Source: Perna viridis
Lineage: Eukaryota
Assembly: GCA_037379345.1 (NCBI GenBank)
Contig: CM074515.1
Span: 8,060,001 to 8,124,000, forward strand
Reading direction: 5' to 3'
Length of the DNA: 64,000 bases
The position numbers are program-made. This document shows, piece after piece, positions 54,001 through 57,000 of the stretch. The number at the start of each line of letters is the position of its first letter. The stretch's first letter is position 1.

Positions 54001-57000
54001 AAATCCCTACCCAGTACAAAATGATCAATTATGAATCATTCACACATTTTTATGCCTTTATCAAGTATATCAACTGTATAGGAACCATCAATGGGAAATC
54101 AAACCATTTTTACATGTTTTAAGTTAGCTTTAGAACCATACCTAGCAGCTCCTCTCAGTAGATCCCTGTCATGTTTACCACAGATCCACCATGACGGAAG
54201 ATCATATGATGTTTGACACAACTTGATTCTCTCATCTAATTTGGGATGTGCTAAAGTCTCCGTACGTATCTTATTGAGGAGATCAATCCTGGCAAGAGAT
54301 CGACTAGCTCTTTCTTCTGTGATAGGTTCCACATATATATTGTTAGGAGGTAGGGCTATTAAGAAAAGGAAGAAAGTATGTGCACATAAATTAAAATCAA
54401 CTTAATCCTGAATTTTTTTAAAATATTTTCTTGCATACTTAAAATGTCCAATTATAAAACAAATAAGCATATTTTATGAAGTGGTTCTTACAATAAATGA
54501 AGTGATACTATAACAGCTACTGTTTTTAACAGGCAATAATAGTTACTTTGAGGTAACAACATGTTCTATATTTATCTCATTCTACATATATTGTACTTCA
54601 GTTATATTGGTTCAAGTGCCATCATAGCTAACATTTACGAAATTCATAATAATGCACATCAGGTATTCTTCTATAGAATAGTTTTTGTTTGATCACTTAC
54701 CATCATCATCATTTTTAAACTTTTTACAGACTCTCATACACATATGGTAGAAAGCTTGAAAATATTCTGTCAAGGTATCATCATGTTTCTTCTCGAGTCT
54801 TGCTAATGACCTGAATCTATCCCACTTGTACCTTCCTGTAAACAGGTCAAACTCTACACCAAATGTTGATATGATTCTGTAGAAATCAGATTCTTCTCTC
54901 CTTGTCCAATGGCTGAAAATACAACAATTATTTGATATATAGCTTTTTATTAGTTAATACAAAGATGTCTATTGTGTAATTCATTTTCCATTTCTAATTT
55001 CATTGGTGAACATAAATTATCTTCCTCTTTTTAGTACTTCTCTCACAATTATAAAGTCATTCAAAAGCACTAAAAATCAAGATCTTATCAAGAAAAGAAG
55101 ACTCTAATGATCCACAATATGACAATGAGCTTCTTCCATAAGGTGTCTAGGGAAGACCAGATCAAAACATGCAAGCTAAATATACAACTTCAGCCATTAA
55201 ATTAAAAGTATTTGATCACAATACATTTAGATATACATAAACAGCATGCAAAATTGAAAGTACAAATAGGACCATATCTTGATTCTAAGTGTTCTGTCAG
55301 AAATACTGCGAAATCACTAAACTCATAAGACTTTCCAACCAGCACACCTGGTAATAGGAGGTCTTCAGTATTAGCATGGCAATTCATCATGAACACTCGA
55401 GGTTGATAAGAAAAATTTCAGACTAACTCTATAGAATGTAGTTGGCAATAAATATTTTGTATTCATTTTTCAACCCAAAAATTCCACAAATGAAACCATA
55501 GACATTAATAACAAAAGTTGGATAAAACAAAAGATTGGATGCCAAGCACTTGTAGCAAATGGATAGACTGTCATAAGTTTGAAGAATAAAGCATGTTCAA
55601 AAATTTAAACCCATCACAACATATACAGATATTATTGACAATATTGGAATTAGCATTATAAAAAAATATACAGCCATCAGAATAAATGTAAAGCCACACA
55701 CCGTAAACTGAAAAGAAAATGAATGTTACGATTCATGCATATTCTGATATCATACCTTTCCCATAATCCGAAAAAACTGTCAAATAAATAGGAAAATATT
55801 ACTTGCAATGACTGAAAGTTTTTTTTTCCGGTAAGTTTAACGTTTGTTTTGTATGATATTGTAAAATGAAGATTCAAGTGCCAAACCATATAACTGATTT
55901 ACAGGGATGGTTTTATGAGGTCATCAAACAAAGCGGAAATTGGTAAAATTGGAAATAAAAAAACAGTAAAAAAAGGAATCCAGATTTCAATTAGCGGAAT
56001 TCCCCTAAAAAGTGGAAAAATATCAACTCTAGATTTACAAAACATACAAAACTACTTTAATCAGTATGGTAATTTGCACCCTTGAAAAAAATTGTTTAAA
56101 ATTTCAGGTGTATGTTGGTATCTAACAAATGATGACAAACAGTAAGGAAAATTGTGAAATTTAACAAATATGCTTAGATCTTGAAAAATACCAGACCAAA
56201 TATGACACCATTTCATGTATTTCAAGGAGAACAGCTGCTAAACCTTGAATTTGGAAAAGTTAAACAAAGATATGACCTTCATTTCATGATCAGAAACCTA
56301 ATAATACTGAAGGTCAAACTGTTCCCTGAAGCCAATTTACTAAGTACCGATAACCCAACCCTACAAAATCATCATACCCTGTTTAATAAGTAGTATGAAT
56401 GAACTACAAAGGCAGGGAAAAGACAAGAAATGTAAAATATACCTCTGTTGATACTGAATTTTTTCATCTTCTTTGTATCTATTCATCATGTCATACCTTT
56501 CTCTTCTCTCCATTCTCTGTAAACCATACAGTATCAATATAGCCGCACAATAACAATAACAAACATATGGAAAATTATCAACTGTTAATAAACTCAATTA
56601 TGTTAGTTTACATATGTAAATACACAAATCATTTAGGTTTGGATTTAGAAATATAGTTGGTGGAGTTCAATTCTGAAACCATTCTATTTTCAAGAGCTTA
56701 GCAGTGTGCACTTCTGTAAAACAAGCACTACTTTATTTCGGATGCACAGACATATGACATATGTATGGACTGATATATGTATGAACATACCCTAGCTCTC
56801 TGAGCATCCTTTAACATTTGTCGTTTATGATTCCGTTGAAAGCTAGTGATGATTCTCCTTATACGTGTATTTAGATCTGACATGGATGGCCAGGGTAGTT
56901 TTTCCTCATCATCACATTCCATAGCAGATGGTGTGGAAAGGTCTTTGGCAGCATTACTGTTCTCCTGACTAGAGAGAACGGATGTACAGGTATCCTCATC

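What the first reader, a model, noticed from the sequence alone, without database searches (positions are those of the whole stretch)
55288..55397. U6-A53 guide snoRNA (SNORD8/9) in a CHD7/8-family intron: apparently ancient host-gene linkage
Seen: textbook C, D' and D boxes, a 7-bp terminal stem and an 11-nt U6 complement; the +5 rule points to the A in AUUAGC (A53). From recall: human SNORD8 and SNORD9 lie in CHD8 introns, and Drosophila kismet hosts a U6-guide snoRNA. If so, the host-snoRNA pairing dates from the bilaterian ancestor. It also shows this gene is a real snoRNA host, which supports the array interpretation.
Basis: partly seen in the sequence, partly recalled or inferred. Interest (0 to 1): 0.65.

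Follow-up and report, generated by a model that had tools for sequence, protein, structure and literature searches.

The report
U6-methylation guide snoRNA in CHD intron
A small guide RNA that should direct methylation of a key catalytic adenosine in the spliceosome's U6 RNA sits in an intron of a CHD7/8-type chromatin-remodeller gene, the same kind of host gene that carries its human counterparts, so it is an ordinary RNA in what may be a very old location.

Summary
On the minus strand at 55397..55288 lies a complete box C/D snoRNA. It has a 7-bp terminal stem (8 with one G-U), C box AUGAUGA, an 11-nt antisense element, D' CUGA one base after it, an internal hairpin and D box CUGA.

A strict motif scan blind to the guide finds this candidate alone in the window, against 0.07 per shuffled window. 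Rfam's best family is snoU6-53 (RF00377, SNORD8/9): 29.3 bits, full model length, E 0.026 for the whole window against all 4227 families. That is below the curated 36-bit cut-off, and only boxes, guide and stem align.

The host is a minus-strand CHD6-9/kismet-type gene (HTH_CHD6-9 E 1.9e-34; BRK E 6e-17). The snoRNA is sense-oriented in a 1.5-kb intron just upstream of the HTH exon.

Papers confirm that human SNORD8/9 guide U6-Am53 and lie in CHD8. For fly, I could confirm only a Northern-positive C/D snoRNA in kis, target unstated.

Ancient linkage is plausible but not shown: the organism is unidentified and intron positions were not compared. I rate it a new member of a known kind, of moderate-to-low interest.

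The parts
55288..55397 (-). Whole box C/D snoRNA (110 nt, stem end to stem end). Rfam aligns 55395-55289 (107 nt) to RF00377 positions 1-110.
55391..55397 (-). 5' half of the terminal stem (AGUGUUC)
   Evidence: 7 Watson-Crick pairs, 8 with one G-U
55384..55390 (-). C box AUGAUGA
55370..55380 (-). 11-nt antisense (guide) element GCCAUGCUAAU. Its fifth base upstream of D' (55373) faces the A of AUUA-GC.
   Evidence: Identical to the guide of the RF00377 consensus. The 10-nt core is also shared with plant snoR53Y.
55365..55368 (-). D' box CUGA
55327..55365 (-). Internal hairpin (AAGAC ... GUCUU with inner pairs) that brings D' next to the C'-like motif
   Evidence: in both the minimum-energy and the centroid structure
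55311..55326 (-). Degenerate C' candidates: AUGAGU at 55326-55321 and GUGAUUU at 55317-55311. Which one is used is not settled.
   Evidence: read; inference
55301..55310 (-). Stretch upstream of the D box (possible second guide). No target assigned.
   Evidence: Not tested: no rRNA or snRNA of this organism is in the window.
55297..55300 (-). D box CUGA
55288..55294 (-). 3' half of the terminal stem (GAACACU)
54913..56442 (-). Host intron (1530 nt, GT...AG). The snoRNA 5' end is 1045 nt from the 5' splice site. Its 3' end is 375 nt from the 3' splice site. If exon B is not real, the intron is 56790-54913.
   Evidence: splice sites read from the sequence; phases fit
56443..56516 (-). Exon B (about 25 codons, a charged linker). 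Weak support only.
   Evidence: AG/GT sites, phase 0 in and phase 2 out. Colinear with residues 225-247 of the spliced relative P0003: 26% identical, E 0.041 for the single comparison.
54701..54912 (-). Exon C, encoding the tri-helical HTH_CHD6-9 domain
   Evidence: Pfam PF23078, E 1.9e-34; 80% identical to P0003; splice sites
56791..57049 (-). Exon A of the host gene (the start coordinate is approximate)
   Evidence: tblastn of P0003, E 2e-19
54141..54356 (-). Next downstream host exon (conserved CHD6-9 region)
   Evidence: tblastn of P0003, 81% identical, E 4e-34
45332..45499 (-). Open frame holding the host exon that encodes a BRK domain
   Evidence: Pfam PF07533, E 6.1e-17. Best solved relatives are the human CHD7 and then CHD8 BRK domains, E 4e-11 and 2e-8.

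Best explanation
This is an intron-encoded box C/D small nucleolar RNA of about 107-110 nt. It is the counterpart of vertebrate mgU6-53 (SNORD8/SNORD9).

Inferred mechanism, from the established C/D snoRNP pathway:
1. It is transcribed as part of the pre-mRNA of a CHD6-9/kismet-type chromatin-remodeller gene.
2. It is released from the spliced intron by debranching and exonucleolytic trimming up to the terminal stem.
3. It is packaged with the core C/D proteins, including the methyltransferase fibrillarin.
4. Its 11-nt element next to box D' pairs with U6 snRNA over AUUAGCAUGGC.
5. The residue facing the fifth guide base upstream of D' receives a 2'-O-methyl group. That residue is the A of the catalytic AGC triad, A53 in human numbering.

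Shown here: the sequence anatomy, its non-chance nature, its best match to the snoU6-53 model, the intronic sense location, and the identity of the host gene family.

Inferred, not shown: expression, processing, the U6 sequence of this organism, and the methylation itself.

The shared host gene family with human SNORD8/9 (CHD8) is most simply read as linkage inherited from the common ancestor of this animal and vertebrates. I put that sub-claim at about 0.65.
For: Anatomy: perfect C, D' and D boxes, a 7-8 bp terminal stem, and a guide one base from D'.

Non-chance architecture: the guide-blind scan found 1 candidate in the window against a mean of 0.07 (stem of 5 or more) or 0.01 (stem of 7 or more) in 100 shuffles.

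Family:
- RF00377 snoU6-53 is the best family for this stretch. It scores 29.3 bits over the full model 1-110, with E 1.6e-4 locally and 0.026 window-wide over 4227 families.
- The 18 nt UUGCCAUGCUAAUACUGA are identical to the family consensus.
- Length is 107 nt against a 110-position model.

Host:
- PF23078 HTH_CHD6-9, E 1.9e-34, and PF07533 BRK, E 6.1e-17, lie on the same strand.
- The exons are colinear with a spliced relative, P0003.
- The closest solved BRK domains are human CHD7 and then CHD8.

Published function of the family: Am53 of human U6 is assigned to SNORD8/9 (mgU6-53), with host CHD8 (passages and tables of PMC7960923, PMC6466398, PMC6023535, PMC10682241 and PMC5855946). The AGC triad is essential for catalysis (PMC5855946).

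No sign of a retroposed copy: there is no A-run after the 3' stem.
Against: - The match does not reach Rfam's gathering score (29.3 against 36) and is missing from the default scan.
- About 70 internal nucleotides do not align to the model. The similarity is therefore confined to parts that function alone would constrain.
- The C' box is degenerate.
- The fold is no more stable than shuffles (z -1.37).
- The snoRNA lies 375 nt upstream of the 3' splice site. From recall, that is farther than the roughly 70-80 nt typical of mammalian intronic C/D snoRNAs.
- There are no expression data, no U6 gene in the window and no sequence from a related genome for conservation.
- On ancient linkage: a survey of 44 eukaryote genomes concluded that intronic snoRNA-host associations are in general not stable across the eukaryote tree (PMC3511168, abstract and passages). 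The fly half is unconfirmed as to target.
Confidence: 0.8

Rival explanations
1. It is a functional U6-A53 guide, but its presence in a CHD6-9 gene here and in CHD8 in human is independent. snoRNAs move between broadly expressed, intron-rich genes, and the guide sequence is dictated by U6. On this reading neither sequence similarity nor host shows common descent of the arrangement.
For: Only boxes, guide and terminal stem align to RF00377. The internal 70 nt do not. Plant snoR53Y carries the same 10-nt guide core plus D' yet is a separate Rfam family. PMC3511168 reports ongoing intragenomic mobility and no stable intronic association across eukaryotes. Intron positions were not compared.
Against: Landing by chance in the same gene family out of thousands of possible hosts is improbable (inference, no computation). 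The unusual length of about 107-110 nt is shared with the vertebrate family model. Fly kis, the orthologous gene family, also hosts a validated C/D snoRNA (PMC2825236 Table 4), although its target is unknown to me.
Confidence: 0.2
2. It is a decaying or silent copy: a former U6-A53 guide that is no longer processed or used.
For: Below the Rfam gathering score. Degenerate C' box. 375 nt from the 3' splice site. No expression data.
Against: C, D' and D boxes are perfect, the guide is 11 of 11, and the terminal stem has 7-8 pairs with no mismatch. A neutrally decaying copy in 31% G+C intron sequence would be expected to have lost some of these. No poly(A) tail is visible.
Confidence: 0.07
3. It is a real C/D snoRNA whose main target is not U6. 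The target could be another RNA carrying the same 11-mer, or one reached through the untested D-box-proximal element.
For: The element upstream of box D (55310-55301) has no assigned target, and no rRNA or snRNA of this organism was available to test.
Against: The D' guide is identical to that of the family experimentally assigned to U6-Am53. The register places exactly the known methylated A at the +5 position.
Confidence: 0.04
4. It is a chance resemblance in AT-rich intron sequence.
For: An 11-mer complement alone is not rare. With up to 3 mismatches the 16-base guide+D' pattern is expected 1.33 times per shuffled window.
Against: The full architecture without the guide already occurs only 0.01-0.07 times per shuffled window. 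The exact C-box/guide/D' pattern occurred in 0 of 100 shuffles. Covariance-model E is 0.026 over all families.
Confidence: 0.01

Closest known systems
Vertebrate mgU6-53 / SNORD8 and mgU6-53B / SNORD9 (mouse MBII-28); Rfam RF00377 snoU6-53
   Same: Box C/D architecture. The D'-linked guide is identical over 18 nt to the family consensus. The predicted target is the same, U6 A53. Length is similar (107 nt against a 110-position model). It is intronic and sense-oriented in a CHD6-9-family host, and the human copies lie in CHD8.
   Different: It scores 29.3 bits, under the 36-bit gathering score. The internal 70 nt are not alignable. The host is a CHD6-9-type gene whose BRK domain is nearer to human CHD7 than to CHD8, not CHD8 itself. 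Only one copy is seen in the part of the gene inside the window, against two in human. It lies 375 nt from the 3' splice site.
Plant snoR53Y (Rfam RF01279)
   Same: Shares the 10-nt guide core CCAUGCUAAU followed by one base and CUGA. By the alignment, the same U6 position would therefore be targeted.
   Different: Only 17.6 bits against a cut-off of 43, E 1.4. The model is shorter (76 positions). It is a separate family.
Drosophila box C/D snoRNA snoCD_02 in the kis gene (PMC2825236)
   Same: A Northern-validated box C/D snoRNA hosted by the fly member of the same gene family (Table 4).
   Different: About 85 nt rather than about 108. Its target and sequence are not in the main text that I could read, and the supplements are closed. 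Whether it is a U6 guide is unknown to me.
Other U6 methylation guides (SNORD7/mgU6-47, SNORD67, SNORD94, mgU6-77)
   Same: Same class and same substrate RNA (tables; passage).
   Different: Different guide sequences, target positions and host genes.

Membership tests
Box C/D snoRNA (general class) | C box RUGAUGA near the 5' end and D box CUGA near the 3' end, brought together by a terminal stem | tested here: met
   AUGAUGA at 55390-55384, CUGA at 55300-55297, stem of 7 Watson-Crick pairs plus 1 G-U. It is the only such candidate in the window, against 0.07 per shuffle.
Box C/D snoRNA (general class) | Antisense element of 10-21 nt ending 1-2 nt upstream of D or D' | tested here: met
   An 11-nt element at 55380-55370, one spacer base, then D' at 55368-55365.
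Box C/D snoRNA (general class) | Internal C' box | tested here: inconclusive
   Only degenerate candidates: AUGAGU at 55326-55321 and GUGAUUU at 55317-55311. A hairpin places the first next to D'.
Box C/D snoRNA (general class) | Stable RNA bound by fibrillarin, NOP56, NOP58 and SNU13 | not testable with these tools
   No expression or binding data are available.
snoU6-53 (RF00377; SNORD8/9, mgU6-53) | Score at or above Rfam's curated gathering cut-off (36 bits) | tested here: not met
   29.3 bits. There was no hit in the gathering-threshold scan. It was found only with the E-value threshold. I therefore file it as a U6-A53 guide of the same kind and a probable orthologue, not as an Rfam-certified member.
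snoU6-53 (RF00377; SNORD8/9, mgU6-53) | D'-linked guide that places U6 A53 at the fifth position upstream of D' | tested here: met
   The guide and D' are identical to the family consensus UUGCCAUGCUAAUACUGA. The register was read. This assumes that this organism's U6 carries the conserved stretch, which could not be checked.
snoU6-53 (RF00377; SNORD8/9, mgU6-53) | Sequence similarity outside the functionally constrained elements | tested here: not met
   73 model positions and 70 sequence positions between D' and the 3' stem were left unaligned by cmscan.
snoU6-53 (RF00377; SNORD8/9, mgU6-53) | Intronic, sense-oriented in a CHD8-family host gene | tested here: met
   Minus-strand intron 56442-54913 of a gene with HTH_CHD6-9 and BRK domains. 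The human host is CHD8, from tables.
snoU6-53 (RF00377; SNORD8/9, mgU6-53) | Same (homologous) intron as SNORD8 or SNORD9 in CHD8 | not testable with these tools
   No eukaryotic genome or gene-structure resource was on hand. The papers read give the host gene only.
snoU6-53 (RF00377; SNORD8/9, mgU6-53) | 2'-O-methylation of U6 at the target A depends on the snoRNA | not testable with these tools
   This is an experimental test.
CHD6-9 / kismet subfamily (host gene) | Tri-helical HTH_CHD6-9 domain and C-terminal BRK domain | tested here: met
   PF23078, E 1.9e-34, and PF07533, E 6.1e-17. The best solved BRK relatives are CHD7 and CHD8.
CHD6-9 / kismet subfamily (host gene) | N-terminal chromodomains and SNF2 helicase core | not testable with these tools
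   These would lie upstream of the window's end (beyond 64000 on the minus-strand gene). They are not in the window.

The most novel reading that the evidence does not exclude
The U6-A53 guide and the CHD6-9/kismet gene have travelled together since the common ancestor of this non-vertebrate animal and vertebrates. If the animal is a protostome, that means since the bilaterian ancestor, more than half a billion years. They may even sit in the same intron, next to the exon for the tri-helical HTH domain. After the vertebrate genome duplications the snoRNA would have been kept only in CHD8. That would be one of the rare positionally stable snoRNA-host pairs, linking a guide for the spliceosome's catalytic AGC triad to a chromatin remodeller rather than to a translation-related gene.
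Probability: 0.55. Interest if true: 0.5.

Novelty: new member of a known kind. Interest (0 to 1): 0.35.

Why it matters
U6 Am53 sits on the first base of the catalytic AGC triad, and its guide is known mainly from vertebrates. A clear counterpart in an AT-rich, evidently non-vertebrate animal genome extends the family. It also shows that Rfam's cut-off misses such a copy.

The more interesting point is positional. A published survey found snoRNA-host associations generally unstable over deep time (PMC3511168). A guide that stays in one gene family from this animal to human would therefore be a useful exception. It would also be a handy synteny marker for finding U6 guides in poorly annotated invertebrate genomes.

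For annotation of this locus, it marks the CHD gene as a snoRNA host. That gives context to the seven C/D-like units further upstream.

Tried and rejected
- Rfam at gathering thresholds gave 0 hits in the window. The hit appears only with the E-value threshold.
- A second U6-53-like copy was sought with up to 3 mismatches in the guide+D' pattern. None was found beyond the known site.
- Fold stability as evidence failed: z -1.37, not significant.
- Organism identification failed.
  - The exon-C protein search (longer proteins only, up to 2000 aa) scored 27 candidates and returned 12 unnamed fragments at E of 1e-5 or better.
  - I did not try to trace the unnamed records.
- I recalled a likeness between ORF 35193-35411 (minus strand) and the N-terminus of RB-family proteins. 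It was not borne out: no Pfam family and only noise-level PDB matches, E 0.27 or worse. I dropped it.
- The bacterial-type promoter/terminator scan of 55200-55700 is not meaningful for a eukaryotic intron and shows no excess. I ignored it.
- The HTH exon has no solved relative by sequence.
- The fly kis U6-guide claim and any earlier description of the linkage were searched.
  - 'kis-a' + snoRNA + Drosophila gave 0 papers.
  - 'MeU6' gave 1 unrelated paper.
  - 'U6-53' anywhere gave 22 papers, 21 listed. None is about invertebrate hosts by title. I opened only three of them newly, plus two already open.
  - PMC3884663 does not mention kis as a host. Its 16 'kis' matches seen in passages were the surname Kiss.
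- Three look-ups of older papers were not held: a DOI and a PMC id that I recalled for the 2005 fly snoRNA survey, and PMC84686 for Ganot 1999.
- The spliced gene model was never joined. Exons were searched one at a time.
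Full report
**What is there**

The feature lies on the minus strand, 55397 down to 55288. The sequence reads as follows:
- 5' stem half AGUGUUC (55397-55391)
- C box AUGAUGA (55390-55384)
- three bases
- the 11-nt element GCCAUGCUAAU (55380-55370)
- one base
- D' box CUGA (55368-55365)
- a hairpin whose outer pairs are AAGAC/GUCUU (55365-55327)
- degenerate C' candidates (AUGAGU at 55326-55321; GUGAUUU at 55317-55311)
- a 10-nt stretch with no assigned target
- D box CUGA (55300-55297)
- two bases
- 3' stem half GAACACU (55294-55288)

The predicted fold contains both the terminal stem and the internal hairpin. 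Its energy is ordinary: z -1.37, with 21 of 200 shuffles folding as well. The window has no N. I do not take it for human: it has about 31% G+C throughout, and its BRK exon matches human CHD7 and CHD8 only as a diverged relative.

**Is it more than chance?**

I wrote a strict scanner that knows nothing about the guide. It requires RUGAUGA, a CUGA 9-24 nt after it, another CUGA 40-140 nt after it, and a terminal stem of at least 5 pairs with short spacers.
- On both strands of the window it returns exactly one candidate, this one, with a stem of 8 counting one G-U.
- One hundred dinucleotide-preserving shuffles of the window gave a mean of 0.07 candidates (stem of 5 or more), 0.03 (6 or more) and 0.01 (7 or more), never more than one.

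The exact C-box/guide/D' pattern occurs once and in 0 of 100 shuffles. That pattern came from the sequence itself, so the test is circular. The guide+D' 16-mer with up to three mismatches is not rare: 1.33 are expected per shuffle. The short complement alone would therefore mean little.

The independent test is Rfam.
- At gathering thresholds nothing in the window is reported.
- With E-value reporting, RF00377 (snoU6-53/MBII-28) matches 55395-55289 on the minus strand. It scores 29.3 bits against a cut-off of 36 and spans model positions 1-110. E is 1.6e-4 for a 401-base search and 0.026 for the whole window against all 4227 families.
- The alignment shows 18 consecutive identities with the family consensus across guide and D' (UUGCCAUGCUAAUACUGA), plus the C box and the stem. 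The 73 model positions between D' and the 3' stem are skipped.
- The runner-up is plant snoR53Y at 17.6 bits, not significant. It shares the 10-nt guide core and D'.

**What it should do**

The fifth base upstream of D' (U55373) faces the A that precedes GC in the complement AUUAGCAUGGC.
- In human U6 the 2'-O-methylated A53 is assigned to SNORD8/9 (mgU6-53) and fibrillarin (table in PMC7960923; passage in PMC5855946).
- That A53 is the first base of the AGC triad in human numbering is my own knowledge. The triad's role in catalysis and in U4/U6 and U2/U6 pairing comes from PMC5855946.
- The pathway is the established one for intronic C/D snoRNAs: excision with the host intron, trimming to the stem, assembly with the core proteins, pairing with U6 and methyl transfer. 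It is inferred here, not shown.

**The host gene**

I searched exons one at a time. The joined, spliced model was deliberately not built or searched.
- The open frame at 54693-54953 (minus) carries PF23078 HTH_CHD6-9, E 1.9e-34.
- The frame at 45332-45499 (minus) carries PF07533 BRK, E 6.1e-17.
- The other 8 of the 10 frames submitted had no Pfam family.
- The closest solved BRK relatives are human CHD7 (E 4e-11) and then CHD8 (E 2e-8). The HTH exon has no solved relative by sequence.

A protein search with the HTH exon scored 27 candidates among proteins of 124-2000 aa and returned 12 unnamed fragments at E of 1e-5 or better. One of them, P0003 (390 aa, 87% identical), looks like a spliced product of a related species. 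It maps colinearly onto the minus strand at:
- 59873-59769
- 58542-58429
- 57060-56791
- 54908-54678
- 54356-54141
- weakly at the 60411-60593 frame
- weakly at a short exon, 56516-56445 (26% identical, E 0.041)

Splice sites and phases read give exon A about 57049-56791, exon B 56516-56443 and exon C 54912-54701. The snoRNA therefore lies, in sense, in the 1530-nt intron 56442-54913. It is 1045 nt from the donor and 375 nt from the acceptor. If the weakly supported exon B is not real, the intron is 56790-54913, and the conclusion is the same. No A-run follows the 3' stem, so nothing suggests a retroposed copy.

**The synteny claim**

The human half is confirmed. SNORD8 (mgU6-53) and SNORD9 (mgU6-53B) target U6-A53 and have CHD8 as host. 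I saw this in tables, as passages: PMC6466398 Table 3, PMC6023535 and PMC10682241.

The fly half is only partly confirmed. PMC2825236 Table 4 lists snoCD_02, a box C/D snoRNA with an 81-nt tag contig and a Northern band of about 85 nt, in gene kis. Its main text gives no target. The other searches for a kis-hosted U6 guide found nothing.

Against easy acceptance of deep linkage, PMC3511168 surveyed 44 eukaryote genomes. [quoted passage not shown] PMC5006418 could place only 11 snoRNA families unambiguously in the bilaterian ancestor. It counts snoU6-53 among 12 families that Didemnum has lost relative to the Didemnum-Ciona clade.

The similarity to the vertebrate family is limited to functionally constrained elements. 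The shared host family is therefore the only independent pointer to common descent of the arrangement. It is a good pointer, but:
- the organism was not identified;
- no eukaryotic genomes were available to sample other lineages;
- the intron positions in CHD8 and kis could not be compared.

I put inherited linkage at about 0.55-0.65.

**Verdict**

- The identification as a U6-A53 guide of the SNORD8/9 kind in a CHD6-9-type intron is well supported, with confidence about 0.8 for the function as stated.
- It falls short of Rfam's own membership score, so I call it a new member of a known kind and a probable orthologue, not a certified family member.
- 'Bilaterian-old linkage' remains a reasonable, testable inference.
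- Interest is moderate to low.

**Context noticed**

Upstream in the same gene and on the same strand, seven copies of a C/D-like unit of about 65 nt lie between 60933 and 63924.
- They have a conserved C box and an internal second ATGATGA. Five of seven have an intact CTGA D box.
- Rfam gives only weak, mutually inconsistent matches (SNORD27, SNORD73, Z17, SNORD82).
- The U6 guide shows that this gene's introns do carry at least one well-formed snoRNA. That makes the array reading more plausible but does not prove it.

Noticed in passing
60933-63924, minus strand: Seven copies of a box C/D-like unit of about 65 nt, spaced 199-690 nt apart. Each has C box ATGATGA, a conserved 16-nt stretch after it, an internal ATGATGA and a short terminal stem. 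Five of seven have D box CTGA. They lie upstream of the CHD exon frame 60411-60593, on the host's strand. Rfam gives only sub-threshold, inconsistent hits: SNORD27 30.1/52, SNORD73 about 25/42, Z17 24.7/44, SNORD82 21/43. No target was identified.
   Followed up: partly
44087-44203, both strands: Sub-threshold matches to plant microRNA precursor models on both strands (MIR859 32.9 bits against 130; MIR2600 31.8 against 98). This suggests a long hairpin or inverted repeat in a CHD intron, probably repeat-derived.
   Followed up: no
22950-23024, plus strand: Sub-threshold mir-124 model match (28.8 bits against 49, E 0.029). Similar peptide words recur in nearby open frames, which hints at a repeated element rather than a microRNA.
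   Followed up: no
36638-37886, plus strand: A run of unusually long open frames (157, 89, 98 and 77 aa) in slightly more G+C-rich sequence (0.364). It looks like a decayed mobile-element coding region.
   Followed up: no
41889-42932, minus strand: A 347-aa open frame rich in Ser, Lys and Pro with no Pfam family. By position it is probably the last large coding exon of the CHD gene.
   Followed up: no
52256-53098, minus strand: A 280-aa highly acidic (Glu/Lys/Asp-rich) open frame with no Pfam family. It overlaps open frames on the opposite strand because of its low-complexity composition. It is probably a disordered CHD exon.
   Followed up: no
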